Below are positions 39,515 to 64,000 of a stretch of 64,000 bases of DNA, piece by piece. The notes below the pieces were generated by a model that searched no databases, had not been told where the DNA came from, and saw nothing but the letters and a program-made list of their open reading frames with translations. Source of the stretch: Amoebophrya sp. A120 (Eukaryota; Protista; Dinoflagellata); NCBI GenBank assembly GCA_905178155.1, contig CAJINV010000006.1, positions 3,222,437 through 3,286,436 of the forward strand, in the 5' to 3' direction. The position numbers and the translations under genes are program-made. The stretch's first letter is position 1, and every line of letters begins with the position of its first letter.

Positions 39515-41703
39515 AGCTAAAAACAGGGGATGGAAAAATTATAGACGAAGGAGGTGAAGAGCAAGTTGGTTTTCACGAATTTGTTGATGTACGAGTGGTT
39601 TTCATCTTCGGGCTGGAGGACAGCACACAAATCAGCATGGCGAGGAACAACATTCTACTGGCAGTAGAGATGTGCTGACTGTTCTTGTGATGGTGGTAGG
39701 TCCTTCTCTCGACGGTACTAGTTGTACTTCTACGTGGGTTTTTTGGCTGCAACGGCTACGGCCCGAAACGTGGACGATCACGATGGACGAGCGTGGTACA
39801 ACTGGAGGTTGAAAAATATCTACTTGCTGGGAGATGTTGTTGACGTCCACAACTTACAAGGGATGGCTTAGAAGTGTGGAACCTCCAGCACCGGGCTGCG
39901 TGATCCCGTAGGGCCGAGGGAGGAGGTTCTTTTTCGTGTGGAAGATGATCAGACTAGCAGTCAGACGCCGAGCAGAGGACCACAACAGGAGGTGTTTGTT
40001 TGGGGGTAATATTTTTCAGGTGTCCGGGAGGACGAGGGCGGGCAGAAGTCTTCAAGCTCCTTGCGCGGTGGTGGTCGTGCTGGGTCGTGCTAGAAGTTTG
40101 GCTGAATTTTATGAAAGGAAACTTTTTCAAGAATCATTGAAGAGATGAATTTCTACTTCGCGGCTATCGCTATCTTGTAATAGCAGGGGCTTTATATTAG
40201 CAGGACGAAGTGTACAACTCTTGTTCCGACTATTTGGATAATGTTGTTGTTTCGACGTACGAAGATATATAATTTGGGCTTAGACGATGACAAACTTAAT
40301 ACGACACTACTTGTTGTTCCACGGAAGAGCTGTTGGACGGGAGATGCTATTCCGGTCGACTTGAATGATTTTCAAACGAGTGAGAATTTATTTTCCTTCG
40401 TGTGCTGGAGTAGAGGATAAGATTGGTTGCACGACTTGTTGATATGGGCCTTTTTGTCTTAACGCTCTGAGCTGCTCCGACAGAGACGCAACGCAACGAC
40501 GCAACGCAGCTCTGGTGCTCTCTTCTCATGATGGTCGACGTATTGACAATCTTCCCGGCTAGGAAGGCTACTTACACGACAAGCTGTTTTTTCCCCGACG
40601 CCACTTACTACTTAATCGATACTTCTTCTATGCAGAATGGGTCTAGTATCTTCAATCGGAACCCGAACCTCGCTGAAATTCTTCTTGTTTTCCAAGTGAA
40701 TGATGATGAACTTTTAGTTTTACTAGTACAACCACTAGCGACTTTTTTTCATCCGCTTTAGTACCTGGCCACGTATGTAGATTTCTTTCTTTCTTTATTA
40801 CAACCCTCATGACGATCATGACGAAAACCATACTCTACAAAAGATGTTGAGAAAAGGGCTCGTTCTTGCTGTGTGTCCAAAAGTGATGTTAAAAAGCAGG
40901 CTCTAGTTCTTTTCTTCGACACGACATAAGGTCAGAATTGATCAAGAAACCTTTTTTCTCGCTGCAATATACAATTTTGCCTTGCATAATTCGCCTGAAG
41001 TAGAACAACCACGACTGGAGCAGTTGTATTCGTCCTCGAAGATGATGACCAGGGCTGCAGCGAGCTCGCAGAAACAAGAGATGCCCATCGTAGTTTTCAG
41101 AAGTATTTTAATTCTGAAGGAGCATTAGCAAGTGAGCTTTTACACCGACATTTTAGAGGTGACTGACGTCGCACCTCCAGATGTTCTCGTAGGCATGGTT
41201 GGCGTGGCACAACTATCACGACCACCGTGCTCCTCTTTCGTGTTTACAACGCAATTAAGCCACAACCACCGAGTTCAAAGGGAAGATACAAAAGTGGTGC
41301 GAACAAACAGCTTCATGATGAAAAGATCTAGTACTCGTAGTGGCCGCCAACGAGGAGCACACAAACCTGTCCAGATTTGATGAAGTAAGTAGCTTTATTT
41401 TAGTTTTTGTGATTAAAAGTGATAGTTCGTTGCACAAGAGAGCAGTGGTCCACCTCCTCCTTTCACATTTTCGCAGCGACAAACCAAAAGTGGAACAGTT
41501 TTACTAGAAATACTTCGTCCGAAAGTCAAAGTTAAAGCACAAACCGCAAAAGGCAGGAGCAAAAACGCGCTCGATATTCCCTACATTCACGTCGTCGATC
41601 ATTATGTCAATACTTTGTGACAATTTACAAAACACCTCTGATGTTATCTCGTGCGCTATAACAACTTCTTTTCGCAATTGTCTACTTCTTTGTCAACCAT
41701 TCT

Positions 41704-44700
41704 ATGATGAACCACCAGCCAGAAACTCCGACTAGAAATCAACAAAATCAGCGACCTCAGAAAGAAGAAGCGTTTGTTGATCTTCTTCAAACGAGAAGTA
41801 CAACAACAATAAACTACGGCGGTATCGATTTCAACCGTGAAGCACACGACCAGCGACCAGCTGTTTTTCACGACACTGACACTCGCATTCTTGGGCAGGT
41901 TGCTGAACCAAGAAGTAGATTTGAGCCTCTTTTTACTCCCTCGCCACCAAGAGGAAGAGAGAAGTCGGGGGATCACGATCCGCTCTTCACTACCTCTCCA
42001 CGTGTAGTAGAGTCATCGGAGGACGAACTCGAGTTACTAGCTGCACCCTCTTCCGAGCAGGGCGACCACCCAGAGCAAGTAGGGGACAACTACAAGAATC
42101 TGGATGTTGACGCAGGCACGGCCGAGCACGAGCTCCTTCCATTGGCTGCTCACCAGGACGGCGGCGGACAGGAGGACGATGTCGGATATTTTTCCGGAGA
42201 AGATGTTGAGTTGTTAAACCTCCATCCCGGTTGTTGTACAACAAGAACAAACAAGAGAAGCAACCTCGACAACCCAATCTCCCCGCCGGAGAAAAAGCGC
42301 ACGACTAGCAAGGAAGCCGACATCCCTTCAACCAACCTCCCGCAGCTTGACGTTGATATCAAATGCAAATATGTCTGGGTCTCGAAGGTGCAGGTGGCAA
42401 CTTGTCATGGTTAATCTGAAGCATGCAAAAATCTGTGTTGCATGAGTGCCAAAAGCTGTCCACTTTTGACCAAGATGGCCGGGAGTTTCTCATGCAGGAT
42501 AGGCATGGCAGAGACCTCGCAGAGTCTGTCATGCTGAGTCCCGCACTCCAGACCTCATGGGTCATGGAAAATCTGCATGACAAGCTTACACTTTTTCGAG
42601 ACCCAGATGACATTTTTTCACTTGATAGTTGAGGGTCATCCGCAATTCCCGGCGACTAGTCCGAGTTGTTTTCGTTTGGATCCGGCGAGAGCGGCGGAAT
42701 TAGGAGTGGAACAAAGAGAAGGAGTTGTTGGAGTAGCCGGGGATAGAAGAAGTTCTAGTTTTCTTGACGAACAGTCTTTAGCTTCACCTTCAGGTCCTCT
42801 TTCAGAGTCAGCATCCGCCGCGGGGGCGTCAGCGGCAGAACTAGAGGACGAGGAGTCAACATTTGCTGTTGGTCCACAAAACGAGTTACTACAGTTCCCG
42901 GTAGGGAACTCCAGTCCACCACAGGAATCAGGGGAATTTTCCCCTTTGTTTTCCGACGAAGAAGAACAAGAAGCTTCGCCTTCACCTTTAAATTCCTCCC
43001 CAGGTGGGGTAGAAGACGAGCAGTCCTCCCCTGAGGCAAAATCTCCCCCACCAAAACGGCGACGACTTGTCCTAGGGTCTGCGTCAGACGACGAGGAAGG
43101 CCAAGACCAGGAGGAACAAAGTAACGACTGGTGTGCTGCTTCCCAGTACATTCCACCTAGTAACTTTTTTGCTTCAAGAACAACATTATCCCGGCAGCAC
43201 GAACAGCGGCAGCAGCAGTTGTGCAGCTCCACCCGGCGCTCCCCCACTGTAGAAGACGTTTTTTCTGCGCTTGACGGGCGGGGAAGCAAGAGCAACAGCA
43301 AGACCGTTCTTGCAGCTCCTCCGGCTGGACTAGTACAAAAAGAGCCCGAAGCTTTAGATCATACCAACCGCAGTTTCCGTTTCCCGAAGCCTGAGCCGAG
43401 TGAGGAGCCTTCTCAACAAGGCGAAGGCGGCGCTGGACAACCGCGCGAAATAGTCAACGAGCATACAGGACTCCACCCTGTTGAGCAACAACCTGGGGAG
43501 ACCGAGGAGGAACACAAGGCGCGGCTGATAAGACTTTGCGAGGAAGATATGCACTGCAAAAGCATCGTACTAGTAGTAAATTGCATTACAGCATGAGAAA
43601 TAAAATTTGTCATGCGGATTTACCTTCAGAGAAAGATTTGTAATGCATGACTGCAATATTACGAGTGCGATACTTTTGCACAGGATAGAAGAGGAGGCGG
43701 AGCAGGAGAAGCATTTCCTGAGCAAAGCTGTAATCCACTGCTGGGACGGGCAGTTTGAGGGAAAAGATCAGTTTGGAAGGTTTCCGGTTGAAGACGACGA
43801 CGAGGAGGAGAGCCAGAGCGAGAGAGACGCAGCTGATCAAGAAGTAGGTGGATCTACTTCAGTCGAAGAGGAAGAAGTCGCTGACTCTTCTGCGGAGCCA
43901 GGAGTACTACATCATCATCATCAACAAGAACCTCAGCGTCGATCTCCCACTGTAGACGACGTTTTCCAGGCGCTTGATAACTTTCCGGTTGGAGAAGTTG
44001 GACCAGAGGAGCAGAAGTATCAACAACAGCGTGAATACGAAGATTACGTCGAAGGAGGAGCTAGCAGTGCGGAGGAAGCTGCGCACGATAGTTCGTTTGT
44101 AGAAGAAGAGCGATTTTTTCAGCAAGACGCCGGCGCCGCTTACGTCGACACCAGCGGGCTTTTACAGCTACAGGAAAGCGACCAGGAGAGTCGTGCAAGT
44201 AGTGAAGAGGAGGAACAAAGCAGCTTCGTCGGAGAAGTTCAAGTTGAACCAGCAGTAGGACGGGAAGAATCTTCACTAAAAGAACTTCCGCTCGAAGAAG
44301 TAGAGCCAGCCTCGGAAGAAGCTGCACCAGAAGCCGCACCAGAAAGAGCAGAACAGTACAACCACTTCTACGCCGAGAGCGAAGACAGTTGTTTTTTCAC
44401 AGACGACGAGATATCCCCTGCAAAAGTATCGCACTCGTAGTCTAGTGGTAATTATCGCAATTATGCCTGACATCAAATCTCTTTCTCAAAGTGAATCAGC
44501 ATGACAAAAACTTGCACCCGTCATGCTGACCAAATTTGTTTACGCGATCATTTATGCATGCTACTAAAACTAGTGCGATCCAGCTTTCGCAAAGTCCATA
44601 CGAGACAGACACACTAGGCGGGGAAAGCAGCGACCTAGAGGAGCTAGACGAGCAGAGTTACAAGTTACTCGAGGAACACGAACAGGAGAAGGCTTACCGT

Positions 44701-47700
44701 GAAGAACAGAAGCAGGCTGAAGTCTTAAAACAGGAGCAGGTCCGCGTCAGAAACCCACAGCTTATCGTTCAGGAGAACGAAGAACACGACCAAAATCAAC
44801 TCACACAGGAAGAACGCGACCTGTACTACTATCCGCATCAGATCCCGCCGAAACTCTACACAGGACGCAAAGTTCCGCGGTATCTGCTCACTGGTGCAAC
44901 TGCACCCAGTACTACAACTAGAGCTGCTGTTCCCACTTCTCCACGTCGCGGTTCGACGCAGCGTCGTGTAGTTGCTCAACAGCAGTTTTCATCTTCGGAC
45001 GAAGAGGACAATTTTGCCGACGGTGAGGATTCCCCCAGTTCCTACAACGGGGATCAATCGAATTTATGAATGTGCACAACTCCCCCTCCCCCTCATATGT
45101 ATTGCATGAACAGCAATGCAAGCGTCAGGGGTAATCCCCTTTTTGCAAGACAAATTTGAATCACAGGAGTGTGGTGCTATTTGGGCTGCCAGAACTTGTC
45201 ATGCAAACAGTGTCAAGATGAGCCAAGGCGTAAAAAACTAGGCACTTTGCATTACAAATGAGGGGGACGGGGAGTTGTGCACCCTCATAGAATTCCTCTT
45301 GCTTTCACCAGAACCACCCAAGGCACGGAGGCTATTTTGGGCCAGGATCATTTTTCGTCGAGAGTAGCGAACGACCGCTGCTCGTAGGGAAAAGAAAGAA
45401 CCGCAGCTCGGAGGACAACTCATTCGAAGAAGACTCGCAGTATTCCTCGCAACAAGAGAAAGGGCGAGGACCTGCTATCGTTACCAGTGAGGACGCTGAT
45501 AGTGAACAGGAGCCGTTAATCCACCGTGCCGACCGGGTATACGACGACAACAGTGAGGACGCGCTGAGCGACGAATTTATCACCATCTACAAAAAGCCAC
45601 CCCCACCCATCGAGGAGAAGGACATTATCAAGAGCAAGGGCCACTACTTGCGGTATTTGAAAGCCATTAAGCAGAAGAAGCAAGCCCGGAAGCAGCAGAG
45701 AAAGGTCTTGAAGTATCAAATGTAAAAATGTCTGGGTCTGGAATGTTGCAGGGTTTGTCATGGAGATTTTGCATAACCCAGGATGTCTGTAATGCACGAC
45801 CTAGCATCACAGATTTTTAGACGGCTTCCTGATGCCTATTCCGCATAACAAATGCCCTCCCCGCGTAGCACAAACTAGACTCCTCTTGCTGGTCATGCAA
45901 TACAGATTTGTTTAGAGTTCAAAGTTAGCATCACAAGTTCCAACCTTCCAGACCCAGACATTTTTACATTTGATATGAAGGAATCTGGGGCGATCGAGAA
46001 GGACCGGCAGCACGTGGAAGACCTATGCATTGCAAATGTGTCTGGGTCTGGAAGAGTACAAGTTATCATGCTAAATCTGAATCATGCGAAAATCTGTGTT
46101 GCATGATTACCATATAAAGCTGTCCACTTTCCTCGAGCAAGCCGCAAGGCAGTTTCTCATGCAGACAAGGCATGGCACAGATCATCTCACAGAACCTGTG
46201 ATGCCAGGGCATGCATCACAAACCTCATGTGTCATTGCAAACCGTGCATGACAAACGTAATGCACAACTTTTCCAGACCCAAATCGATGTTTGCACTTGA
46301 TAGGACCGACACCAGTACAAGTTAGAAAATTTCGTCCGGGGGTATTTCGACTGGCTGCGAAATATCGACTCGAGTGAGGAAGTAGGCACGGTAAAAGCAT
46401 CTTCGCGCTCGGAGTAATCGTAATTGCATTGTTTTACATGACAAAAGTACTTTCTCTACCTGAATCCGCATGAGAAATTTTATTTTTTCTTCAAAAAAAA
46501 TTGTGATGCCATTTCTACTAAGTGCGACTCTTTTGCCATGCATACCGCGAGGGCTACAAAGAAGAGCAGGAAGAGGAAGTCGGGGCTGTCGTTTCCGCCT
46601 ACGAAACTAGCGAGGAAGACGAGCGCGTCACCCGGCAGAAGGAAAAGGAGTTAGCGGCAAATCCGTTGTTGATCATATCAAATGCAAAAATGTCTGGGTC
46701 TGGAAGAGTGCATGTTTGTCATGCTTGTCTAGCATGACTCTCAAATCTGTCATGCACGTTACCCAAGAGCGCCATTTTTCTGTCATGCAGAAACGCAGTT
46801 TGTCATGCAGAAACTGAGGCAACACCTAGAAGCTCAGAAACTTGTCATGCTGAGCCAGCACTTGTGGCCTCCTCACGATACGCCACCCAGCATCACAAGT
46901 TTCCAGACCCAGACAGTTTTACATTTGATAAATCACCTACGAGGACACTTTGAGTGACAAACCTGTCCCACTAGCGGATTTGTACACCATCGACACAAGG
47001 CCTTTGCGGAGGTGGATTGAAGATCTCCACGAAGACGACTTGTGGGACCACGACATCGATCCGTTGGAGTTGCTGAAGGTCCGGAGACGCCGAGACTACG
47101 ACTTGCAGCTGCGGTTAGCCTTCGTGCAGGCGGAGACTTTTGCGATTTTAGATTTGGAAAACGACCCAAGTGACCGGATTGAACTCGCGATCTTACTCAT
47201 GGCGGGCCAAGTCGTTCCCCTCAACGAGGGGTGGAGCCGGATCCACAAGGAGGGGGTGTTGGTACTGGAAGAATTTCTGCAGGAGGGCACGATCAGACCC
47301 TCGGTGCAGCAGCAGGAGGGAAAGCCAAAGCGGATTTTCAGCAATGCGGACTACACGGAATTGTACACCTTGGTGTACAACATGTGTACGCAGCGGACAC
47401 CGAATAACTGGTAATATACCTAAACCTATGTCTTCTAGGATTTTTGATTTGAATAAGTAGTGCCTTTTTGTTGCGTTTTATCATGACATGAAGTAGTACA
47501 ACTTAGGCCATACATGCTATACTACAAATCTACACTTATCGTCAAAAATTATCAGGCAGCAGCAGTTGTATCAGAAGTACGGTGAGACCATGAATCAGTA
47601 CATCAGCAAGAGTATCAATTTGCAAACATGTTGTCTGGAAGATTGCGAGATTTGTCATGCTATTCTGGCATCATGATCATGCGCATGACCGTGAGCTCTG

Positions 47701-50700
47701 TAATATTGCGTGTCGTCCACTAAGAGGTCCTTTTGTCTGTCCTGCAAAGACGCAGTTTCTCATGCAGAACACGCAAGAAAACTGGGCGGCGGCGAACAAA
47801 TCTGTCATGCTTGGCGGTGCATTACAGTGTGCTTGCTCTTTACTGAATTGCATATATACACCTTTCCAAACCTCCCTCTTCCAGACAGACTTGCTGTGCA
47901 TAAAGAGGGTCATAAACGGCTTGGAAAAGCGAGTAGGGAAAGATTTGCTGCAGGCGCTATTGAAAGCATGGTCCAATCACCAATTGTACGTGAAGTGGAT
48001 GACGCGGTTCTTCACCTATCTAGACAGGTATACTATAGGAGAAAGAAATAAACATAAACTTCTAAGCTTGATGTTGATGTTTGTCATGCAAAACTAAAAG
48101 TAAACACTTCATCTGACATGCAAAAACCGCAACTTATCTATGAGTGCATTTTATCAATGACTCAGGTACTACGTGAAGCTGCAAGCAGTCCCTTCGCTTA
48201 CCGCCCGGGGTTACGCTATCTTTAACCAGTCCATCTTTCAAGCCGTATCGGGGGATACCCGGGAAGCGCTTTTGCAGGCGATTCGGTCCGACAGGGACGG
48301 GGAAGCAAACTTTTCCGACGGGGACATCGTGAAGGGGGTGGTTTCGATTTTCATCGAATTAGGGGCCTGTGTGGCCAGTGGACGAGATGCGGAGGTATAT
48401 AGTTTTTAGAGCATAGTACAACGACAACTATATAAATCAAGTTTGATATTTCACGAAGCCAAAGAACTTCAGTTCGCAGATTTGGTGTGGAAGTAGAACA
48501 CAAACTCCATCCTTGATGCCTGATTTTCCAACACAAATTATCTACGAACCTCATTAATATCAGCTCGTCGCCGGCGCTACGGGCACGATGCAGGGAACCT
48601 TCCCCTCGAACCACCCACAGCACGGATTGCAGATCTACGTGCAGGAATTTGAAAGCCACTTCCTGCCCGACAGCAAGGATTACTATGCGCGGCAAGCCGC
48701 CGGCTGGCTGGAAACCAATTCGTTTTCGGAGTACTTGCTCCAGGCGGACCAGTGCCTGTTGAAAGAAGCGGAGCGGGTATGCGAGGAAAAAACTGTTTCG
48801 CTGTAAACTTGTAATGCAGGAAATGTATCCCACATGTGTTTGTCTTGCTACACAGCCATGCAACACAGTGGATTTTTAGCTGTACTTTCCCTTAGGACCC
48901 TTGCATGGCAAATTTTCTCTGTCATGTAGAACATCAAACCTGTGATGCAAAACTTGCAAAATCCTTACCGTGAAACACTTTTTTCGTACGATAACGGGTG
49001 AAGATGTACCTGCACAGAACCACGGACCAGAAGCTGAAGCTGGTATAGTTTAAAAAAGATGCTTAGTGCTCTGAGCATTACAAATTACCTCAGCATGACA
49101 AATGGAATTTGTCATGCTGTTTTACCTTGGGATGGAGATTTGTAATGCATAAATGCAATCGCTACTTGTCCTACCCTATCAGGTCCTCCTCGAAGCGCTG
49201 CTGAACGAAGACACGCGGAAGATCCTTATGGATTGCAAAACTGTCTGGGTCTGGAAGATTGCAATTTGTCATGCTAAATCTGAATCATGCTAAGAAGCTG
49301 TCTTGCGTGATTACCGACAGCCGTTCTTTTTTACCAAGTTGAGAGGCAATTTATTTCTCATGCAGGATAGGCATGATAGAGATCTCACAGAGTTTGTCAT
49401 GCTAGGTGCTGCATTCTAAACCTTATGAGCCGTAGAAAACCTGCATGACAAACCTTGCATCCTTCCAGACCCAGACATATTTGCATTTGATAATCCTGTT
49501 AGACAAGCAAAACTCGATGGAATTCCTGCTCGAAAATGACAAACGGGAAGACTTGTCTCGCGCGCACAAACTTTTCGGCTATGTGGAGGGGGGCTTGCAA
49601 CCGTTAGCGGCCATCTTCAAGACACACATCATCTCCAAGGGGAATGCCATTGTCGATGACAGGTATTTTTATAGAAATAGACTGTGATGTGGATATTATT
49701 TGCATGACAAAAAGAAAAATAAAGCGACACTGTCGATGAAGTTAGTAAGGGCGTGCTGTAGTTTTTGTTTGGTTGCATAGCATGAGAAGCATGTACATAC
49801 CTTTTTCTCTTTCATTTTCTGCATTTTTACGAATTGCCACTTTTGTACTTCCTGGCCGGCACGATGCTCAGGTTAAAGGCCGTCGAGGAGGATCCGAATT
49901 TGAAGAAGTCCGACGGTCTCAACGACCCGCAATTCATCCAGAAAATGCTGGACCTGCACGACCATTACCGAGCGGTGGTTGTCGCGAGTTTCTCCTCCGA
50001 TTCGCTCTTCCAAAAGTCCTATCAAATGCAAATATGTCTTGGTCTGGAAGAATGCAAGGTTTGTCATGCTTGTCTGGCATGACTGAGGACCTTGTGATGC
50101 GTGTCCAAGACGAGAGCCTTTTGCCTGTCATGCAAAAACGCAGTTTGTCATGGGGAGAGCGCAACACTAAGTAGCGCAGATATTTCTCATGCAGCTTGGC
50201 TGTGCATTACAGAGCATTCACTATTCTCAACCGAGCATTACAAGTTTCCAGACCCAGACATTTTTGCATTTGATAAGTCCCTGAAGGAAGCTTTCGAGCA
50301 GTTCCTGAACCGGGATTTAGGGAAGCACAGCTGCGCAGCGTTAATGTCCCACTTCTGCAACCGGATTTTGAAGAAGGGTATCAAACGCAAATATGTCTGG
50401 GTCTGGAACAAAGCAACTTGTCATGCTAAATCTGAATCATGTAAAAATCTGTGTTGCATGATTACAAAAAGCTTTTCACTTTTGGCCTAATCGAGAGGCA
50501 GTTTCTCGTGCAGGATAGGCATGATAGAACTCTCACAGATGAATCTGTCATGCTATGTCCTACATACCAGACCTCGTGGGTCATTGGAGAACCTGCATCA
50601 CAAATCTGGCATTCTTCCAGACCCAGACATATTTGCATTTGAAGAAGGGCGGCACGCCGGAGCGGCTTTCGGATGAGGAGGTGAACATCATGATTGACAA

Positions 50701-53509
50701 GATATTCTCAGTAAAAACGTCCCCACCCCAGAGTTGTCATGCAAATCTGCATGCTAGAAAAGTTTCTCATGTGGAGCTTCATGAGAGACATGCTCTCGTC
50801 GTGTTTTGGAATTTGTGATGCTAGAATCAGCATGGTAAGCTAGATCTGTGATGCTTCCGAACTAGCTAAACAGGGTTACACTACGAGGACAGACTTGTCA
50901 TGCGAAACAGCCAAAGCTGGTTGATTTGTCTAGCAAACTTCCCATCTACTTGACTCTGGTGTGGGGACATTTTTACTCAGGATACAAGATCGTGGAGCTC
51001 TTCAACTTTTTAACCGAAAAGGATCTGTTCGCGGAGATTTACCGAAATCAACTTTCGAAGCGGTTGTTGGAGGATTCGTCCGCGTCGGACGAAGCCGAGA
51101 AGAACATGATCATGAAGCTGAAGCTGAAATGCGGGGCGCAGTTCACCTCCAAAATGGAGGGGATGTGCAACGACTTGAAGCTCGTATCCTGTGCAAAAGT
51201 ATCGTACTCGGAGTAATTCCAGTCATGCGTTTACAAATTTTGTTCCCAAGGTAGATCCGCATGACAGATTTTATTTCTCATGCTGAGGAAATTTGTAATG
51301 CATTTATACGACTAGTGCGATACTTTTGCAATGCATTGCTCGCAACAGACGACAACAACAAATTTGACACCTGGTGCACGGAGAACAACAAAAAACAACT
51401 TGGCGGAATGCAGGCCGGCGGGGCAACATCGAGCAGTTCCTCGTCAACTGCGAACAACAACGATGTCAACAAAATCACGATGGAATTCGGCGTCACGGTC
51501 CTCGCCACCGGCTACTGGCCCCAGTTCCCATCATATCGCAAAAAAAAAGTGTTAAGTACAGTTACACATTGTGTTGCAGGCCAAGCAAGACAGACAAGCT
51601 CTGTCATGTCGGATATGCATAGGAGCCTCGTTTCACAGGTTTTTTCCCGTAGGATTTCTGCATTACAAGTTTTCTCTCTCATGCAAAGAAATTTGTGTTG
51701 CTGAATTGACTACAAATGTGTGACTGTGCCAATTTTTTCGTGGGATACATCAACAGAAATTAAACTGCCCCGACAACTCTCTGTCGCACTGGACATCTTC
51801 ACGGAGTGGTATAACCAGAAAACGCAGCACCGGAAGCTATGCCAGAAAAAATTTGTGTAAGTGTAACTCTGTAATGCAGAACATGCTACAGAGTATACGC
51901 CTTGCATGCAAGACAGCCATGAAGTCCTCGCTTCATGTGTGTTACCCCTTACAAACCACGCATGACAGGTTTTCTCTGTCATGTACAGCAAATTTGTGAT
52001 TGTGATGCTGTCAGCCAAAGAAAGTTACACTAGCACAGTTTTTTCCCTGGATAGAAGCTGACCTGGATCCACTCGCAAGGCACGGCGATCGTGGCTGCGA
52101 AAATCGGGAAGAGGCACGATCTAGTTTGTTCCACGTTGCAAGCGGTAGTGTTGCTTTTGTTTTCCCCGAACAAGGGTGGAAGCGGGGAGGATAAGGACAA
52201 ACCGGTCGAGTTGAAGGTGGAGGATATCCAAAGGGAAATCTCGGCAAATGCAGACCAGCAAATTGAAGCGGTGCAAGTGAAGAAAATATTGGGTACTGGA
52301 AAAGTGTGTTTTCTTTTTCATACATTTTGACCTGTATTTTTTCCACGGTTAACGAGTTTGTCATGCTGCATGGAGATCATGATCATCTGCTCTTAATATC
52401 ATCTAGTACTGAGACTGACTTGTATTGCATGACAACAATCGCACCTCCAAATTAGACGACCAATTACAGGCACCCTCGCCTGCAGCAAGCATCAAGTTCT
52501 GGCCGTGAAGAGAAACGGGGAAATCGTGGACAAGCCAAAAATATGAAATGCAGAAGCATCGTACTCGTATAAATCGCATGACAAATTTCCTCAGCAAGAA
52601 AAATGAAATTTGTAATGCGGGTTTAACTTGAGAAAAAAACTTGTATTGCATGAATGCGATTAGTACGAGTACGATACTTTTCCCCAGGATAAAGAACAGT
52701 GTCCGCAGAGGATTTGTTCTGTGCGAATGTCAAGTTCTCTTGCCAGCACAGGAAGGTATAGATACTGCTCTTGGGTCGTACTCGTGATTTGTTTTTGTGT
52801 TGCATGTCTTTACAGCAAGGGCAAGTGCAAGAGCAACTACTGAAGAAAAAGATCATGACCATTTAAAGTTCAAGTTTCTCTAATATGCGTACGATCGTCC
52901 ATCGAGATTCATATCCAAATTTTTCTATCAGGTCAAACTCCCGTCCGTGGCGCAGGGCACGGGCAAAGACGGTGCGGAAGAGACGCACAAACAGGAGCGG
53001 ATTGAAGAGGACCGGTCGTTCTCGATCGACGCATATCCTGAGTAAAAGCGTCCCCACACCAGAGTTGTCATGCAGATGTGCAATCGCAGGAACATTTGTA
53101 ATGCGCAGATCCATGAGAGGAATTTCAATTTTCAGTCGTGCTTTGGATTTTGTAATGCTGTAAACGGGATTTGAGAGTGGTTTTCTCATGCGGCTTCTCT
53201 TGCCAATCAGACCTACACTGCAGAGGGAAACTTGTCATGCAGAGCTCCCAAAGCTTGGGGATTTGTGTTGCTAGATTCCCAACTTGACTATGTGGGGACG
53301 TTTTTGCTTAGGATAACGCAGCAATAGTGCGGATCATGAAGGCGCGGAGGCGGCAGACGCACCAGCAGCTGCAGGCGGAGGTGATTCAGCAACTCGCATT
53401 CTTCAAGCCGAATCCGAAACTGATCAAGCAACGGATTGAGCATTTGATAGAGCGGGAATTTTTGGAACGAGATGAAGACGAGTCGAATGTCTACAAGTAC
53501 TTGGCATAG
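41704..53509 (+). CDS. Cullin (CUL1-like; cullin homology from M at 47199), apparently in frame with a ~1,224-aa acidic disordered N-terminal extension; 19 introners plus 7 GT-AG introns
   Basis: Cullin motifs YTELYTLVYNMCTQR, WMTRFFTYLDRYYV, KSLKEAFEQFLN, EKDLFAEIYRNQLSKRLL, LKLKCGAQFTSKMEGMCND, VLATGYWP, neddylation site IDAAIVRIMKARR, IEHLIEREFLERD..YKYLA*; GT-AG introns 47411..47555, 48028..48165, 48395..48563, 49043..49182, 49663..49871, 52293..52469, 52756..52931. Confidence 0.92.
42357..42627. mobile_element. Introner, family A
   Basis: TSD gttga. Confidence 0.9.
43548..43687. mobile_element. Introner, family B
   Basis: TSD gaaga. Confidence 0.9.
44412..44600. mobile_element. Introner, family B
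   Basis: TSD cgaga. Confidence 0.88.
45065..45289. mobile_element. Introner, family H
   Basis: TIR tatga..gtgcacaactcccc; TSD gaatt. Confidence 0.9.
45714..45975. mobile_element. Introner, family A (young copy)
   Basis: Perfect ~30-bp TIR; TSD tgaag. Confidence 0.95.
46024..46302. mobile_element. Introner, family A
   Basis: TSD agacc/ggacc. Confidence 0.88.
46383..46544. mobile_element. Introner, degenerate family B
   Basis: TSD eroded (ggaag/ccgcg); a GT-AG pair at 46382..46551 also keeps frame. Confidence 0.7.
46676..46930. mobile_element. Introner, family A
   Basis: TSD gatca/aatca. Confidence 0.92.
47613..47902. mobile_element. Introner, degenerate family A
   Basis: TSD aagag. Confidence 0.85.
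48778..48993. mobile_element. Introner, family E
   Basis: TSD gcggg/acggg; restores EAERVKMYLH. Confidence 0.9.
49227..49492. mobile_element. Introner, family A
   Basis: TSD atcct. Confidence 0.92.
50020..50275. mobile_element. Introner, family A
   Basis: TSD agtcc; restores FQKSLKEAF. Confidence 0.93.
50379..50644. mobile_element. Introner, family A
   Basis: TSD aaggg; right terminus mutated (gaag). Confidence 0.88.
50703..50984. mobile_element. Introner, family C
   Basis: TSD caaga. Confidence 0.9.
51185..51337. mobile_element. Introner, family B
   Basis: TSD gctcg. Confidence 0.9.
51534..51747. mobile_element. Introner, family E
   Basis: TSD catca. Confidence 0.9.
51838..52053. mobile_element. 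Introner, family E
   Basis: TSD gaagc; restores HRKLTWIHSQG. Confidence 0.92.
52542..52691. mobile_element. Introner, family B
   Basis: TSD aaaaa/aagaa. Confidence 0.85.
53034..53315. mobile_element. Introner, family C
   Basis: TSD acgca; restores IDAAIVRIMK. Confidence 0.93.
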
Positions 53510-54299
53510 GAATCATGGTGCAGCGTCGGTGAGGAACAACTTCAGGTAGGAGATTTTACTGTCACGTCAGCGATTCGGAATCGGGTGAAGAGTGGATGAA
53601 ATTTTGAGGTGGGAGGTGAGGAGAGGTGATTTTATTTCGGATGGAGTGGCTTGAGGTTTACGCGTCTCCTCATCCTCTTGAAGATGTTTACCCTTTTTCT
53701 TTACACCAGCGTCGTTCTTGCATAGAGCAAGCAGGATGAACTTCTGTAACTCTACATAATCAACTTTCAAGCGAGACGACGTTGCTGTGTCTTCTTTTGA
53801 TCTACTCTATGTAGTTCCTCCTGTAGCGGAAAACTCTTACACGCAAGTATTGATTCTAATCTGGCACCGTTGAAAAGCTTTTGGTAATAAAAACGAACTT
53901 TGAGTTGCTAGAGCTAGAGGTAGAACTACTACAAAACAAGAACCCATTCAGTATCAGTACTTTTTTAACGAGGACACGACGCCAGTACGAAAGCAGCTCG
54001 ACTGCTAGTAGTGCAGTAGCTGTGTCGACGAAAAGACCCCATGAGTTTGTCGAGAAGTAGTATCATCTGGAATGCTCGATGAGGACTCGTTCTCAATTTG
54101 ACGAACTTTTTTACACGACTGGCGACATCAATTTTTTTTTGAAATGAACAAGAGGCAGCTCCTCGTACAGCTCGCAGGAAACGGCGTTGGCTGAGCTGTG
54201 CAATTAGTACTATCACCTTGTTCGTCTTTGTCATTCTTTTGGATGCTTTTCGGTTTCGTTTTCATGGTCGGCGATCGTTTTCGTTGTTGCTCGCAGCAG

Positions 54300-56160: not shown

Positions 56161-56412
56161 TTAGTCGCTTTTGATTTGGTGCTGTGATTTTTTCATCTAC
56201 CTAACCCCCGCGACGCTCAAAAGGAGCAGTGAGTGTGAGTGCCAGAGCTGGCCCCGTTTCAGTTTCTATTTCCGATATGATCCTATTTTGTTTTTCAAAC
56301 AACGAACAAGAACACGATCCGCCTCCATCAATGAACTTTGTCGATGATTTGAAGTCAGCGATTTCTACTTTCGTACAGCAGAACATAAACAAGAAAGGGC
56401 GCGTCTATTACT

Positions 56413-59400
56413 ATGAATTCTCTCTCGTCTACTTCCTCCAAAGCCCCCTCCACATTCATCTCAAATAGAAAAGACAGTCTCGTCGGAGGACAAACGAATC
56501 TTCACGAAGATAACCAACATGTTGACCACTCGGACTCCTTTCGAGAAAACGGTCGCGAGCATGACGGAAGCACCACGGGGGCCGCCGGGGGGAATTATGC
56601 GTCCCATGGTGTGGCCCTTAACTCTTCATCTGTTCCCGTGGACGTCGCAGCCACCAGCTCATCCGACGAAGAAAAAGAAGATGCTGTTGCTGACGACGAC
56701 CTCCCACCAGAAGACTTCGATCCTGCACGAGGACCCGCTAGTACCTCCAGCGAGGAGAACAAGAGCCTCCAGATCCGCATCGTGCATTTGGATTCGACCG
56801 ACACGGCCCAGGGACCAGTCGTTCGCATCTTCGGCCCGGTATGGGAGCAGGATCTTGAGGAGACGCGAAAGGAAGACACTTTGCAGCAGCAGCAGCAGCC
56901 CGCCGCATTGCAGAAAAACGAAGAAAATATTAAAGAGGCGAGTGACAACAGACAAAATGGGTTTGATGTTCATTCAAGAAGGAAGAAAACGGTCGGCAAT
57001 ACTAAAAAGCATATCAAGAAGAAGAAAGACAAGTCCGGCTGCGTGTACATCCGAGATTTCCTACGAGACTGCACAGCTCGCCCTGCCTCTCATTCGTATT
57101 GCATGACCGGCAAAAATACAAGCGTCAGCAAGAGTGCAGGTTTTGCATGACAGATTTCCAGAGGAGGATGGCAGTGCTGTTTGGGCTGCCATAAATTGTC
57201 ACGTAAACAGCACCAAGAGGCAACGCAAAGCCTGGATTTGGTATTTTGCATGACAAATGGAAACGCGGGGGAGCAGGGGGAGTTGGGCACTCTGATACTT
57301 CCACCCGTTCGTCTACTTGAAAACATCTTTGTCCCCGCGGGAGCTGAAAAAGGATCTCCTTTCCCTACTCCACGAGCAGTTAGCGCTGCTGAAATGGCGA
57401 AGCAAGGTCGGGCATTTAATGGGCGGAGGCGGTGGGTGGAGCAATCGTAACTCTAACAATCCGCTGTCAAAATCTTCGTACCAGCAAAGCAACAAGTGTC
57501 AGCACCTCCCCGCCGGGTCCGTAGTCGCGGGGAGGAGGGATGATTTGTGGGTTCAGGGGAGACCGGATCTCGAGAGCATCTACGGGTATATTGACCGCGA
57601 GGCCCTTCTTGAGGAGGAGCAGGAGGAACAGCTTCTGCAGGAAAAGCTGTACCCTGTTCATGAGGCGTCTTCATCTTCCCGACTTCCCAAGCTCGTCTAC
57701 CAAGTTTTCACCAAATACATCATTTACATGAAGATTCTGATCGAGTCCCTCGGCCCGTACAGCAACCGGTTCCAACTTTTCGAGGCGCACATCCCGTACA
57801 ACTTGCATTTCCTGGAACAAACGAGGGTTGTCGGGATGGGCTGGATCAAAATCCAAAACGCACGAAGCAGGACGGAAAAGAACAAACTAAAAACCACGAC
57901 CTGTGACATTGAGGTGGAGCTGACGTGGAAACATTTGATGCAACAAAACGCGGGCTTGGACGTGGCAGACTCGGTGCTAGATCGGGAACACGTGAACGGA
58001 AATGGCAATCATAATTCGCAAGCCGGATCTTCTGGAGCAATATGCATTGCAAAATTATCGTACTAGTATAAACATAAACTGCGTGACAAATTATTTGCTC
58101 AAGAATAAACATGCGATTTGTACATGCTGTTCTTTTCCCCTAGAAAGTAGATCTGCCATGTATGGCTGCAATTAGTACGAGTACGATACTTTTGCAGTGG
58201 ATAAGCAAGCAACGGGGACAATTTGAATCCAAACGACACAATGATGTTGTTCCTACAGTCACAGAAATCCATCTCCGATGGAGATCTAGGTTTGAAAGAT
58301 AAGGAAAAACGGGGGGAAGGGAGGTTTGTCGAGCAAAACAACGCCAAAAGTAGTAGTTCAAAGCTGCTGGTGCCGCCCCCAGCGTCCGCCAACTCTGTGG
58401 CGAGCAACGGCAGTGGTTCTCACAGTGGCACGAACACGAGCAGCTATGTGAAACACATGGGGCCGCCATTGCGGGTTCTGTCTCTGCCGGAAGAGAAGCC
58501 GCATAGTACGCAAGAGGAAGACTATAAAGATTCTTCTTTCTTCCTAGACGACAGTCGGAATAACGGCGACCACAGTACTTCTAGAAATCACGACCGTTCT
58601 CATCGTCCTGCCGCAACCAACACATCCTATTCCTCCAACCAGCCCTTCAAACAGGACATTTTGAAAAAGCACTGGCTGGTAAAAGCGTTGAAGGGTTTGT
58701 GGATTGAAGAGGGTATCCGGTGCTACAACAACGGCCTCGACCCGCCGGAGCCGGGGTCGCCGATCATGCGAGAGTGCGAATCCGCCGCGAATTCGCCAAT
58801 TTTGGATCCGGAGCAGCAGCGCCAGTTAAAGGCGTGGCGGGAAATGTTTGATTTTTTTGTGTCGAGAAAGCATTTGAATAGAGAAGGGCACGACAAGAAA
58901 AACAAAACGGGACATGCGCGCGGCGGTCTAGGTCGTCGCCGAAGAAGTAGATCTAGTATCGACAGTGAGGAGAAGCTGTTTTTGGAAATGGAAATGAGCC
59001 GGGATTTGCTAGATGCCGATAGGAGCGCGCTGCACGAAGATGACAGTTCTTTTAACAACAACTCTTCGTCGCAATCTGGCGAAATGAACAGGAAGCGAGA
59101 AAGAAGCCACAGCAGCAATTTTTCCAGGATGTTGGATATCTCCGCTGTGGAGGACCCGGCTACAGCATCGTCGGAGAAGAGCAAGAGTGCCGGCAGCTCT
59201 TACGACGAAAAGAGGAACATCAAGTCACAGTCTGGCGGATCTTCACCTGCAGGCGGCGACAAGAACAAGCAGAGATCTAAAAGCGACAATGCCGCAGCCG
59301 CCAAGCCGGGAAGATCTAGATCTTCGATAGTACCCTCCGCTTTTCAACCTGTTTTCCCGCCGTCACAGGCGTTTGCTCAACGAGGCATCAACGCAGCAGA

Positions 59401-62400
59401 TTCATCAAAGCAAGCTTGTAAGCACGTGGATAAAAGTCAAGACGCAAGAGGACAACAAGACGCTGAAATGGCGAAGGAACAGCCTGCCGACCCGGAGTGG
59501 GTGCCTAGTCAGAAGAATAGTCAAGGTCGTGCAGCTCTGCCACAGGCAGCAAAATCGGTGCAACTACCTCCATCGCATTCGCAAGAGCGAGAGGCTCCAC
59601 CTCCAAGAACAAGTCAAGACGTGGACAAAAAGGAATCATCGCGGGGGTCGCAGAGGACGCAAAGTTTGCCGCCGTCCGACGACGTCGAGCAAGAGGGCGG
59701 TGGGCCGCGGAATGGTGCAGATACAGGAACAGGAGAATTGCTGGCAGCCGGCAGTATGGTCACAGCCACTGAGAGGAGGCACCAAGAAGAGGAAGATGAA
59801 GATGTTATCATGCGCGACGACGACCGACGCAATTCTTCTTCTCCTCCTCCTTCACCGAAGAACGCACGGCTATCATCGCCGATGAATCAGTTGAACGATA
59901 GTCAACATGCCGAAGAGAACTACCACCACAGCTACGAAGAGGAGGAAGAAGATGCCCGTTACGTTATCCTGAGTAAAAACGTCCCCATACCAGAGTCAGG
60001 ATGGGGATTTTGCAACACAAACCTAGGAGTTTTGGGAGTCACGCATGACAAGTTGCACTCCGCAGTGTAGTGCAGGCTATAGCAAGGGCAAACGCATCAG
60101 AAATCCATCTGCTCATCCTGTTCACAGCATCACAAATTCCAATACACGATTGGAAATGGCTCTCATCCTCATGGGGATGAGCATTACAAGTCTTCCTGTC
60201 TTTGCAAATCTGCATTACAACTCTGGCGTGGGGACGTTTTTACTCAGGATATACCTGGTCGGGCTAGATGGGAGACTCTACGACGATCCGGATGGGGAAC
60301 TGCAGAGAGAGATCAACATATCCTGTGTAAAAACGTACCCACACCAGAGTTGTAATGCAGATTTGCAAAGAGAGGAAGACTTGTAATGCGCATCCTCATG
60401 AGAGCCATTTCCAATCGTGTTTTGGAATTTGTGATGCTGTGAACAGGATGAGCAGATGAATCTGTGACGCGGCTGCACTTGCTGACCTGCACTACACTGC
60501 AGAGTGCAACTTGTCATGCGTGACTCACAAAACTCCTAGGTTTGTGTTGCAAAATCCCCATCCTGACTCTGGTGTGGGTATGTTTTTACATAGGATACAA
60601 CACCTCCATTATTCAACAGACGCAGGCAGAATTCGTGGCGCATAATTATTCGCAGCCTGACAACTACCACACTGCACGTAGAAGCACAACTGGCGGCGCG
60701 CGTCAACAACTGAGTGACGGAAATGAAGGGGATGTTGTGATGAGCAATGCTGACGATGACCTTGAATTGGGACCACCACCCCCTCCTGCCAGTCAGATTG
60801 TGAATCGGGACATGGATCACGACGATGATGACGAGGAACAAGAAGAGGGGGAGTCTCGTCCTTCTCCAGGTGGATTGTTGAATAGCGATGAATTATCCTC
60901 CTTCGACAGACGACCTATCAGCCCTGTAGAAGAACTAGGCGCAGCGCCACAGGTGGACATCGTCGCGGAACAGGTCGTCATCGATGCCTCCGTCATGCCG
61001 TCGCAGCAACTCGCCATGCCTGTCGCGGCTTCCCAAATGCTGGCCATATCTTCGCAATTATTGGCTTCGCAGGATCATGAACAAGAGCAAGACACCAGCT
61101 TCGCTTCGCAAGATGAGAATTCCATTCCTGCTATCCAACCTCCTGCCTTGGAAAATTATCAACAATTTGCTCGTGCGGAACTACAACATCCAATGACTGA
61201 GGATGATCCAAACGCCTTTCTGTCGTTTCTCCACGATCAGCAACACAACCTATTTCCTCAGAGGGGCGACGTGGACAGGAACACTGATGAAGACGGACAG
61301 GACGGGCATAGACATGCCGGGGAACAAGGAGCAGAAGATGAAGAAATCGACTCAGATGTCGAAGTGCATGACGACGACGATGATTTTTCCGACGCAGGTG
61401 ACCACATCGACGTGCAGGAGGAGCCGGAGATTCCGGAGGAAGAGGTGGTGCATCAAGGTGACGACGTTCTGGACGAGGATGTTGACATGGCATTACAAAG
61501 TGAAGACGAGGAGGAAATAGGTCAACTTGTGATGCAAGAAGACAGCATGGAGCTACAAAGCCACGACGATCTTGAGCTCCACGAACCGGACCCCATTGCC
61601 GGTTTTTCCGAAGTGGATGTTTTCCTGCAATCCGCACGTCCCGTGGACGCGATCGGATTGATGAAGCAGAAAAGAGGGAGAAACGGGAAAAACTACAACT
61701 TTCAGCAGCAGAGCCAGAGGTCAGGTGTTGGCGGATCATCATCTGCAGCTCCTTTGAAGAGCGCGGCACCACGAGGACCTGTAGTGGGTGGAAATGAAGA
61801 AGCTGGCCCGTATCATCTTCACGACGATGAAGCGATGTCACAACATCTTCCAGCGGGAACCGAGGAGGAAGACCAGATGATGATTGGAGGAGAAAAATTA
61901 CGACAGGAGCGTGAAGAATCTCCTTTGCAACGCACGCAATCTCTTGGGGAAATCACAACTTCTAGTGACGAGGAGGATCATCATGCGGGTCATGGTCGTG
62001 AACGTGAAGAGGCGGTGGCAGATGGAAGTGTAAATGTAAATGATGTTGACGCCGGCGTCGAAGGAGCAAAAATGAAGGAGGCAGCACGACCCAAAGCGAC
62101 GTCAGTATCACCTTCCGCCGATCGGGATCAGGAAGTTGACGGTCGTGCAGCGAAGGGAGGTGTCGGCCAGCAGACCAGTTGTGCTGTTTTCGCGTCACAG
62201 AAAAATGATGGTGATAGGAGTCCAGCAGCTGCAGTTCCTGAAGCAGCCTCAGGACTACAAGCTGCCGACCCGTCAGCACGGAAAAATACTTCTGCCGAGA
62301 GCCACGAACTTGAACAACCGAAGCACCGGCCCAGCAGTCAATCCTCCGGAGCCAGTTTGGAGATCTTGGGCGAAACCAAACCAGATAGCGTCGATGCTTT

Positions 62401-64000
62401 ATCCAGCAAGAAGCCCCCACTTCTACCCCCGCAGGTACAGCAGCAAGACGAAACGGTCGGGCAAGTCGACTCCGCCGGTAGGCTGATATCAAATACAAAT
62501 ATGTCTGGGTCTGGAAGAATGCAGGAGTTTGTCATGCAGATTAAGCATGACCCATGAGATCTGTGATGCATGCCCGAGCATCACAGGTTTTGAGCAGGTA
62601 CCCCAATGCCTAATCCGCATGACAAATCCCCTCTTTCAGTGACAAGAAGCGGGTCCTTTTGCTGGCGGTGCATGACAGATCTCGGCATGCTGTAGAATTC
62701 GCATCACAATTTCGAATCCTTCCAGACCCAGACACATTTGCAATGCATAACTGAAGGGCGCGATCAAAAAGGCGCCGGATAAGGTTTTCAAAAATTTGAA
62801 ATTCCTATGCACCGCAAAAGTATCGTACTAGTAGGAATCGCATCACAAATGTCCTCAGCATGAGAAATGAAATTTGTCATGCGGACGCAACGTGACAGAA
62901 AATTTTGTAATGCACAAATGCGATTACTCTTACTGCGCGATGCTCTTGCAATGCATAACTCCACGATTTTGGCAACGTGCTGATTATCGAGGCCTGCACC
63001 TTTGACAAAAAAGAACTGGCTATGATTTCCTGGCGGACGTTAGGCGGAAGTGTGGAAGCCGGGTGTATCTGTAATCGGAAATATGTGAGCCTGGATCTGT
63101 TTTTCAAAAGAGAAGAGGAGGCGGATTTTAGAAAAAGAAGCAGAGCTGGGGCAGAAGTACTCAAGAAGCGCGGAGATGGTCGGGGCACAGAAGGAGAAGA
63201 AGTAGAAGACGGCGCGAAAAAATTGCAGCTTCTACCCGGTCGTGGCCCGCCCAGCGGCCACGACGACAATTCCACCTCTCCAACTGAGCTGTTCCCCGGT
63301 TGCCACGAGGTCCCCATTCACCTTCCCTTCCGTACTGCCAAGCACGCGGGAGACGAAATTTGTCCCGCCGTGCTGCAGATGGCCGCGTCGCAGACGGCGA
63401 TGTTGTACGCATTTGAGCTGCTGGTGAAGTATCAACTGTAAAAATGTCTGGGTCTGGAAGAATTCATGTTTGTCATGCTTGTCTGGCATGACTCTTAAAT
63501 CTGTCATGGACGTTATCCAAGAGCTCCGTTTTTCTGTGAACCAGAAGCGCAGTTTGTCATGCAGAATAGGCAACACCTAGGAGCTCAGAAACTTGTCATG
63601 CTGAGCCAGCATTTGTAGCCTCATCACGAGACGCCACCCAGCATCACAAGTTCCCAGACCCAGACACTTTTACTTTTGATATGAAGCGGTTGGAGCCAAA
63701 TTTGCTTTTGAGCTACGACATCCCGGAGGGCCTGGGGCTGGTGATGTACCACGGGAGGAAGGAAAACATGCAGGTGAGACTGTCGAGAGTGCCCGCGGAG
63801 GAAAGAAGTTTCATCAATCCTTCTTTCGTTGCTGCTAGTGGTGGTGCTGTGGGACGACCAGGGACCGGAACAGGCGGTCCGAGGCCGGGGGGCGTGCAGC
63901 AGGTAGGCTTCAACCGAGGTGGTCAATTTTCAGGACTAGGACAACATCAAACTGCACCGATGCAGCAGTTGAACCAGTTTGCACAGCAGCTGCCTTACGG
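56413..64000 (+). CDS. REV3: 5' portion of a DNA polymerase zeta catalytic subunit (REV3-like), running off the window; 7 introners
   Basis: PVVRIFG..GCVYIRDFHPFVY, FQLFEAHIPYNLHFL..GMGWI, CDIEVEL, LKGLWIEE, a long disordered insert, then LVKRLEPNLLLSYDI..LSRVP, matching REV3 N-terminal and exonuclease-like motifs; start uncertain. Confidence 0.75.
57062..57297. mobile_element. Introner, family H
   Basis: TSD tttcc/cttcc. Confidence 0.85.
58041..58203. mobile_element. Introner, family B
   Basis: TSD agcaa. Confidence 0.9.
59965..60251. mobile_element. Introner, family C, inverted relative to 28497/32211/60319
   Basis: TSD tacgt/tacct; body is the reverse complement of the sibling copies. 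Confidence 0.93.
60319..60597. mobile_element. Introner, family C (young copy)
   Basis: TSD caaca. Confidence 0.95.
62487..62749. mobile_element. Introner, family A
   Basis: TSD gctga/actga. Confidence 0.9.
62806..62957. mobile_element. Introner, family B
   Basis: TSD attcc/actcc. Confidence 0.87.
63430..63681. mobile_element. Introner, family A
   Basis: TSD tgaag; restores LVKRLEPNLLLSY. Confidence 0.92.

What the first reader, a model, noticed from the sequence alone, without database searches (positions are those of the whole stretch)
59965..60597. Near-identical introners work in both orientations; an inverted pair flanks a ~67-bp exon
Seen: 59965..60251 is the reverse complement of 60319..60597, 28497..28775 and 32211..32489 (the last three are all 279 bp). 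Family A shows the same: 36368 vs 45714, 14868 vs 62487, 20459 vs 46676/63430. All host genes are on +. Inference: removal cannot depend on strand-specific branch point or polypyrimidine signals, and is more likely driven by TIR hairpin structure or DNA-level recognition. The adjacent inverted pair could form a ~630-nt hairpin whose outer TIRs pair, so the machinery must avoid, or sometimes allow, skipping of exon 60252..60318.
Basis: partly seen in the sequence, partly recalled or inferred. Interest (0 to 1): 0.8.

Follow-up and report, generated by a model that had tools for sequence, protein, structure and literature searches.

The report
Reversible transposon introns in parasite genes
Small jumping-DNA elements in the genes of what is likely the marine parasite Amoebophrya are cut out of the RNA whichever way round they landed, likely because their mirror-image ends show the splicing machinery the same signal in both directions; the elements themselves are already described.

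Summary
Real, and a known class: Amoebophrya A120-type introners (TAT...ATA inverted ends, 5-bp target duplication, about 238 nt). The window holds 80. Removing element plus one duplication puts 78 of 80 inside + strand ORFs. Opposite-orientation copies are 78-91% identical, not near-identical. One spliced RNA contig, in 4 runs of one study, removes family-A copies of both orientations. A copy without duplication fixes the cut 0-1 nt before TA(T) and 4-5 nt after ATA. The 1/4 register lines up with this genome's GTAT donors and gives 102 of 197 phase-0 introns. No G-U excess in the stems (56 vs 68), and copies with out-of-register ends are cut exactly. Best reading: a relaxed spliceosome reads the element ends (0.55); a Euglena-like hairpin code is the rival (0.3). 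The exon is 62 nt, not 67; skipping would shift the frame of a family B DNA polymerase gene. No RNA joint was seen at this pair, so skipping is untested. No earlier scan note on these elements was found.

The parts
59965..60251 (-). Family-B introner, reverse orientation, 287 bp, TAT...ATA ends; duplication TACGT/TACCT (one mismatch); predicted intron 59964-60255 (292 nt)
   Evidence: RNA joint not seen
60256..60317 (+). 62-nt exon between the inverted pair (about 20 codons, not conserved in the one homolog); skipping gives a stop 14 codons later
60319..60597 (+). Family-B introner, forward orientation, 279 bp; duplication CAACA/CAACA; predicted intron 60318-60601 (284 nt)
   Evidence: one X1 contig starts at 60598 and has 19 unaligned letters before it (table 8): suggestive only
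56389..64000 (+). Host gene, family B DNA polymerase (REV3-like layout, recalled), 1981 aa open after removing 7 elements; runs off the window
41662..53506 (+). Cullin-domain gene, one 2074-aa ORF with 19 introners and 7 GT-AG introns; the RNA-tested gene
45714..45975 (-). Family-A introner, reverse orientation, removed in RNA (267 = 262+5)
   Evidence: joint 45708>45976
46024..46302 (+). Family-A introner, forward, removed in RNA (284 = 279+5); with 45714 it flanks a 43-nt exon that is kept
   Evidence: joint 46019>46304; 66.7% identical to the reversed 45714 copy
46382..46548 (+). Introner-like intron without target duplication (flanks GGAAG/CCGCG), ends GT..GC; fixes the cut to within 1 nt
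   Evidence: joint 46381>46549, both=1
44412..44600 (+). Introner with ends out of register with the inner stem, removed exactly (194 = 189+5)
47613..47902 (+). Introner whose last 16-18 nt are predicted not to pair with each other, removed exactly (295 = 290+5)
46676..46930 (+). Family-A introner, forward, removed in RNA (260 = 255+5); 91% identical to reversed 20459-20710
20459..20710 (-). Family-A introner, reverse, in the formin gene; supported by reading frame only
28497..28775 (+). Family-B introner, forward
32211..32489 (+). Family-B introner, forward
51185..51337 (+).
63430..63681 (+). Family-A introner in the host gene of the pair; removed in one low-depth contig (257 = 252+5, side 26 nt); homolog runs across the join

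Best explanation
These are non-autonomous inverted-repeat transposon copies with a 5-bp target duplication that are removed from the RNA in either orientation, likely by the cell's own relaxed spliceosome reading short motifs in the mirror-image ends. Shown: both orientations, exact removal of element plus one duplication, removal without any duplication in one case. Inferred: the intron starts one base before TAT (N-TAT, in register with this genome's G-TAT donors) and ends four bases after ATA, with no AG needed; the terminal stem may help to bring the ends together but does not set the cut. Inferred for the inverted pair: the first intron must be committed during transcription, within about 100-120 nt of its end, before the second copy can zip onto it; otherwise the 62-nt exon would be lost and the frame shifted.
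For: RNA: 10 element joints of exactly element+5 nt among the 15 joints shown, incl. family A reverse (45714) and forward (46024, 46676, 49227, 50020) in one contig; modelled length 44001-54112 equals the contig's 4910 nt with 17 elements and 7 GT-AG introns removed. Register: the copy without duplication allows only 1/4 or 0/5; 7 of 7 canonical donors are GTA(T/A/C), 5 of them GTAT, and 4 of 7 canonical acceptors have TA at -6/-5 like the element end; the 1/4 register gives phases 102/43/52 of 197, p 2e-7, in window and loci alike; all 9 main non-canonical site types listed for A120 have T at +2 (PMC7789003 Table S4). Against a need for exact pairing: G-U vs A-C mismatches 171 vs 192 in 215 oriented copies and 56 vs 68 for copy-specific changes; sense and antisense fold equally (p 0.50); two RNA-shown copies have 0 of 20 terminal pairs in register. 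Spliceosome nearly complete, U1 not found (PMC7789003).
Against: No lariat, snRNA or protein evidence ties these introns to the spliceosome. 67 of 76 copies fold a terminal stem. The 5'/3' asymmetry at end position 3 seen in the window (8 vs 0) did not replicate in the 139 outside copies (2 vs 3; pooled p 0.09). TAT/ATA conservation can come from transposition alone. Ends are not invariant: RNA-length-supported copies end in AAG (50379) and ATT (51185). The exact register rests on one copy; Table S4 calls may reflect aligner preference. The G-U test has modest power and mutation bias was not modelled. RNA comes from 2 samples of 1 study, contigs only, RNA status guessed by the tool; the RNA-shown opposite pairs are only 66-80% identical; no reverse family-B copy was seen spliced.
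Confidence: 0.55

Rival explanations
1. A Euglena-like hairpin code: the terminal inverted repeats pair in the RNA, and a separate or accessory machinery cuts at fixed short overhangs from a paired TAT/ATA motif.
For: 67 of 76 window copies have 8 or more of the 20 terminal pairs in the predicted fold. In Euglena a palindromic motif with unequal spacers and pairing potential is needed, shown by knock-ins (PMC12501133 sections 7, 10); a 1/4 overhang has the same shape. First and last intron bases are free (only 7 of 215 are GT-AG). U1 not found.
Against: No G-U excess. Copies 44412 and 47613 are cut exactly though their ends are out of register or predicted unpaired. The inverted pair 45714/46024 is predicted to pair outer end to outer end, yet its 43-nt exon is kept, though the energy gap there is small (8-17 kcal/mol). 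Long inverted ends are needed for transposition anyway. The cut register matches the canonical donors.
Confidence: 0.3
2. Hybrid with loose cutting: the spliceosome cuts at several nearby positions, the direct repeat hides the slippage, and the 1/4 register is only the commonest outcome.
For: PMC7789003 calls splice sites variable relative to the hairpin (Fig. 3 legend). 184 of 257 outside copies keep a perfect 5-nt duplication. Nine of the ten element joints shown are ambiguous by 4-6 nt.
Against: The copy without duplication gives one clean joint in all four runs. Three mismatched duplications all keep the left base at position 1; the homolog favours the left base at position 2 for 62806. 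No small indels listed at joints, though contigs drop rare variants.
Confidence: 0.1
3. DNA-level removal, like ciliate internal eliminated sequences, before transcription.
For: Orientation-free, TA-bounded, leaves one direct repeat; the host is likely an alveolate (resemblance recalled).
Against: The same contig lacks 7 GT-AG introns at once, as a messenger does. One copy has no direct repeat. RNA runs X8 and X10 hold reads in which an element end is still joined to a flank. No somatic genome is known for this group (own knowledge).
Confidence: 0.03

Closest known systems
Amoebophrya introner elements, A120 type (Farhat et al. 2021, PMC7789003)
   Same: Inverted ends TAT + 7 nt + AAA, 3-5 nt direct repeats at the exon border, many families, mean length about 240 nt (238 here), mixed with GT-AG introns in co-oriented genes.
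   Different: The passages read do not treat element orientation, call the splice site variable or unknown, and propose hairpins. Here: both orientations spliced in one RNA, a fixed 1/4 (or 0/5) register, a copy without repeat, phase-0 excess, no G-U signal.
MITE-type introners of Micromonas, Aureococcus, Symbiodinium (Huff 2016 as cited in PMC10228655; PMC9860276)
   Same: TIR + TSD DNA transposons that become introns; insertion in both orientations is reported; splice sites co-opted from the duplication.
   Different: Those carry or co-opt GT/GC and AG; here any first and last bases serve (7 of 215 are GT-AG), so nearly every insertion site seems usable.
Euglena nonconventional introns (PMC12501133)
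   Same: Palindromic terminal motif, unequal spacers to the cut, direct repeats, likely MITE origin.
   Different: Motif is CDG/CHG with 3 and 5-6 nt spacers and a purine first exon base; pairing shown to be needed. Here TAT/ATA, 1 and 4 nt, no base preference at the first exon position (p 0.64), pairing need not shown.
Fritillaria borealis non-canonical introns (bioRxiv 10.1101/2025.08.15.670264 abstract; PMC11282704 passages)
   Same: Transposon-derived introns removed by an altered U2 spliceosome.
   Different: Those keep preferred ends (AG-AC, AG-AT) and divergent U2AF; no such factor was examined here.

Membership tests
Amoebophrya A120-type introner | Terminal inverted repeat starting TAT, 7 loose bases, then three or more A | tested here: met
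   5' ends of 215 copies: T214 A212 T205 at 1-3; A181, A191, A198 at 11-13
Amoebophrya A120-type introner | 3-5 nt direct repeat overlapping the exon border | tested here: met
   5 nt; 184 of 257 outside copies perfect, 42 with one mismatch; +5 removal restores frames
Amoebophrya A120-type introner | Repeated families of introns with non-GT-AG ends, removed in RNA | tested here: met
Amoebophrya A120-type introner | Host is Amoebophrya and lacks U1 snRNA | not testable with these tools
   No genome held; no Rfam hit in the window; host inferred from element anatomy only
Non-autonomous TIR DNA transposon (MITE) | TIRs, fixed-length target duplication, no coding capacity, either orientation | tested here: met
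   136-323 bp; nearest relative same/opposite orientation 90/90
Non-autonomous TIR DNA transposon (MITE) | Autonomous partner or transposase with the same ends; empty target site in a relative | not tested
   No genome; the 168 outside loci do not overlap the window. Superfamily not assigned
Canonical U2 intron | GT...AG ends | tested here: not met
   7 of 215 at the 1/4 register; 46382-46548 ends GC
Canonical U2 intron | Branch-point word and pyrimidine tract before the 3' end | tested here: not met
   YTRAY 33 of 215 vs 84 shuffled; six pyrimidines 47 vs 25; only a short TTT run from the TIR, 181 vs 19
Canonical U2 intron | Removal by the spliceosome through a lariat | not testable with these tools
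   Contigs cannot show lariats
Euglena nonconventional intron | Signature N3-CDG ... CHG-N5-6 then purine | tested here: not met
   Ends are N-TAT ... ATA-N4; first exon base not biased
Euglena nonconventional intron | Terminal pairing required for removal | tested here: inconclusive
   Stem in 67 of 76 folds, but no G-U excess and two out-of-register copies cut exactly
Ciliate-type DNA elimination | Element absent from a somatic DNA copy | tested here: inconclusive
   No DNA run was laid; removal seen together with GT-AG introns in RNA-type contigs

The most novel reading that the evidence does not exclude
Amoebophrya has a spliceosome that has dropped the G and AG rule and reads the transposon end itself as a fixed code, N-TAT at the 5' side and TTT-N7-ATA plus four bases at the 3' side, so that any insertion at any site and in either direction is at once a clean intron; closely spaced inverted copies such as 59965/60319 are kept apart only by strict co-transcriptional order.
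Probability: 0.4. Interest if true: 0.72.

Novelty: already known. Interest (0 to 1): 0.43.

Why it matters
How Amoebophrya removes tens of thousands of non-GT-AG introns with no detectable U1 is an open question (PMC7789003). This window turns it into tests: a fixed cut register that matches the canonical donor, natural mutants that lack the direct repeat or the in-register stem and are still cut exactly, and an 89% inverted pair whose 62-nt exon separates 'hairpin decides' from 'first come, first spliced'. If the spliceosome reads the transposon end, it explains why these transposons can fill coding exons (80 copies, 30% of the window) without harm.

Tried and rejected
No whole genome was held, so no genome-wide count. 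No RNA holder listed as RNA on record; X1-X4 are guessed RNA. Raw-read runs X8-X10 cover only element ends, not the exons, so no junction reads. The host gene of the pair is thinly covered in X1-X4 and no joint at the pair was shown; 15 joints were not displayed, so absence says nothing. The gradient of duplication mismatches in the window (8,6,4,1,1) did not replicate in outside loci (12,6,6,10,5) and the position-1 excess is mostly synonymous third positions (13 of 18): dropped as evidence on the cut. The position-3 asymmetry did not replicate. A stop-codon test of which duplication copy is kept found no informative case. Strand counts of donor- and acceptor-like words were uninformative. 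A site weight matrix reproduces the phase bias but is circular. Orientation-specific subfamilies rejected: family B tree needs 4 changes vs 4.8 shuffled; the test did not print for families A and C. G at +5 is not preferred at the 5' end (87 vs 87). Viral contig scan and Rfam scan empty. Rows dropped: 118 of 257 outside copies had no confident strand; 18 of 215 had no confident frame or duplication.

Full report
Observation. A self-comparison of the window shows many 140-320 bp repeats on both strands. Element 59965-60251 is the reverse complement of 60319-60597, 28497-28775 and 32211-32489 at 89.2, 90.6 and 88.9% identity, and those three are 92.8-95.0% alike; the reverse copy has 8 extra bases. 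The family A pairs named are 78.1-91.4% identical. The pair is less alike than 60319 is to 28497, so it is likely two separate insertions, not a local inverted duplication (inference; tree).

Anatomy. Each copy starts TAT and ends ATA, has an inverted repeat of about 20-35 bp with an A run at positions 11-14, and is flanked by a 5-bp direct repeat. A finder gave 71 candidates (63 at score 31 or more, against 0 in two shuffles); one was dropped and ten added from relaxed search, RNA joints and inspection, for 80 copies, mean 238 bp, 19,013 bp. On cores trimmed of their ends, family A has 15 forward and 6 reverse copies, C 4 and 6, B 6 and 3, with no inconsistent edge. Removing element+5 nt puts 78 of 80 inside + strand ORFs of 200 aa or more; other lengths give 24-35. 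Hosts include a formin (FH2 hits on consecutive exons), a cullin (profile positions 301-582 in order over six exons; most single exons score below the Pfam cut-off) and a family B DNA polymerase. The one homolog found, P0001, has a Pfam DNA_pol_B domain and runs across the joins at 57062, 62487, 62806 and 63430. 'REV3-like' is my recalled reading of the long insert. The pair lies in that unconserved insert.

RNA. Runs X1-X4 (contigs, 2 samples, 1 study, RNA by the tool's guess) each hold one 5.4-7.0 kb contig over the cullin gene. Of 30 joints 15 were shown: 10 elements and 5 GT-AG introns. Family A is removed in reverse (45714) and forward (46024, 46676, 49227, 50020) orientation in the same contig. 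A model with 17 elements and 7 GT-AG introns gives 4910 nt for 44001-54112, the contig's own figure, and one 2074-aa ORF; this covers family C in both orientations (51185, 52542) by arithmetic. Two of the seven GT-AG introns were placed by me and checked only by that sum. In the same host gene one low-depth contig removes 63430.

Where the cut lies. The direct repeat hides the cut in most copies. Intron 46382-46548 has element ends but no repeat; its joint can shift by one base only, so the cut is 1 nt before TA(G) and 4 nt after ATA, or 0 and 5. In three copies whose repeats differ at position 1 the RNA keeps the left base. The 1/4 register aligns TAT with this gene's canonical donors (7 of 7 GTA-T/A/C, 5 GTAT) and the terminal TA with TA at -6/-5 in 4 of 7 acceptors. 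It also gives phases 102/43/52 of 197 (window 33/17/16, outside 69/26/36), the phase-0 excess usual for spliceosomal introns (own knowledge); its cause here is unexplained. Table S4 of PMC7789003 lists nine main non-canonical site types for A120, all with T second, which fits but may reflect the aligner.

Hairpin or linear signal. One scan of metagenome contigs gave 168 loci with the same families (up to 95% identity, no overlap with the window). The 78 long loci merge to 61 and hold 257 copies (0 in 15 shuffled loci vs 68); 139 could be given a strand, and AT skew agreed in 121 of 139. With 76 window copies that makes 215. If RNA pairing were selected, G-U should exceed A-C: it does not (171 vs 192; copy-specific 56 vs 68, p 0.32). 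Sense and antisense fold alike; 67 of 76 form a terminal stem. Copies 44412 and 47613 have no in-register terminal pairs and are cut exactly; four more window copies, three with 1-3 nt offsets and one with a decayed 3' end, give their longest frame at element+5. Against my reading: the asymmetry at position 3 (8 vs 0 in the window) failed in the outside set (2 vs 3), and two copies end AAG or ATT. No canonical branch word or long pyrimidine tract is enriched, but a TTT run from the inverted repeat sits at the same place in both orientations. Nearest relatives are in the same or opposite orientation 90 to 90, yet family A is biased 44:19 (p 0.002), B 8:8, C 13:17; its rarer orientation has more internal donor-like words (1.6 vs 1.0 per copy, not tested for significance).

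The inverted pair. The full transcript folds into one hairpin with 261 cross pairs, about 250 kcal/mol below the two separate folds. In prefix folds the first copy keeps its own stem up to 60345 and has switched to the second copy by 60370. Joining the outer ends removes 638 nt and gives a stop 14 codons on. So under either mechanism the first intron is predicted to be committed early. The weaker pair 45714/46024 keeps its 43-nt exon in all four contigs although its lowest fold pairs the outer ends; the gap is small, so this is a weak control. Among same-family pairs under 150 nt apart, 6 are direct and 2 inverted, and this is the only one over 85%: too few to show depletion.

What is known. 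PMC7789003 (abstract, sections 10, 11, 12, 16, passages, supplement legends and Table S4 rows; figures not seen) describes these elements for A120, with U1 not found and a hairpin model. Both-orientation insertion of introners is in print: a review passage citing Huff 2016 (PMC10228655; the original not seen) and a methods passage of PMC9860276. PMC12130899 and PMC11282704 were seen as passages; PMC12501133 as abstract, passages and sections 7 and 10; bioRxiv 10.1101/2025.08.15.670264 as abstract. Six searches turned up no paper on orientation, register or phase of Amoebophrya introners; subscription papers such as Roy 2023 are not in the library, and supplementary figures may show the register. 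Three look-ups of earlier scan notes found nothing on these elements.

Verdict. Observation largely right, class already known, inference incomplete. The added value is a testable splice code and natural mutants. Interest 0.43.

Noticed in passing
window and L001-L078: Introner insertions are 52% phase 0 (102 of 197) at the 1/4 register; a transposase cannot see the frame and base preference at the duplication explains only part.
   Followed up: partly
family A copies, window and loci: Orientation bias 44:19 relative to transcription, not seen in families B and C.
   Followed up: partly
window 49043-49182: A GT-AG intron with a family-C core and an end like TAT-N-AAA: possibly an old introner that has become canonical.
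   Followed up: partly
window 41662-53506: Cullin domain fused behind about 1,200 aa of acidic low-complexity sequence in one 2074-aa ORF, carried by one RNA contig.
   Followed up: partly
window 9749-12046: Intron-free 766-aa ORF made largely of about 20-aa basic, cysteine-bearing tandem repeats (60-bp period); no introner in it.
   Followed up: no
window 1521-2903 and 6260-8469: Two paralogous predicted proteins share a C-terminal stretch but carry introners at different places.
   Followed up: no
window 54300-56100: GC-rich (59-68%) intergenic stretch with no introner and no Rfam hit.
   Followed up: no
window 59965-60597: Family-B copies carry four spaced copies of a 9-nt internal motif, all pointing one way; similar motifs occur in other families and may be transposase sites.
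   Followed up: no
window 33780-33924 and 26631-26795: Short copies that are nearly palindromic over their whole length (70-72% self-complementary).
   Followed up: no
L039 930-1252 and L052 637-964 (merged, strand-turned coordinates): Two more copies without a target duplication whose removal keeps a long frame: good sites to fix the cut with reads.
   Followed up: partly
window 16602-16740: A family-C copy with a decayed 3' end lies between ORFs, where splicing may not be needed.
   Followed up: no
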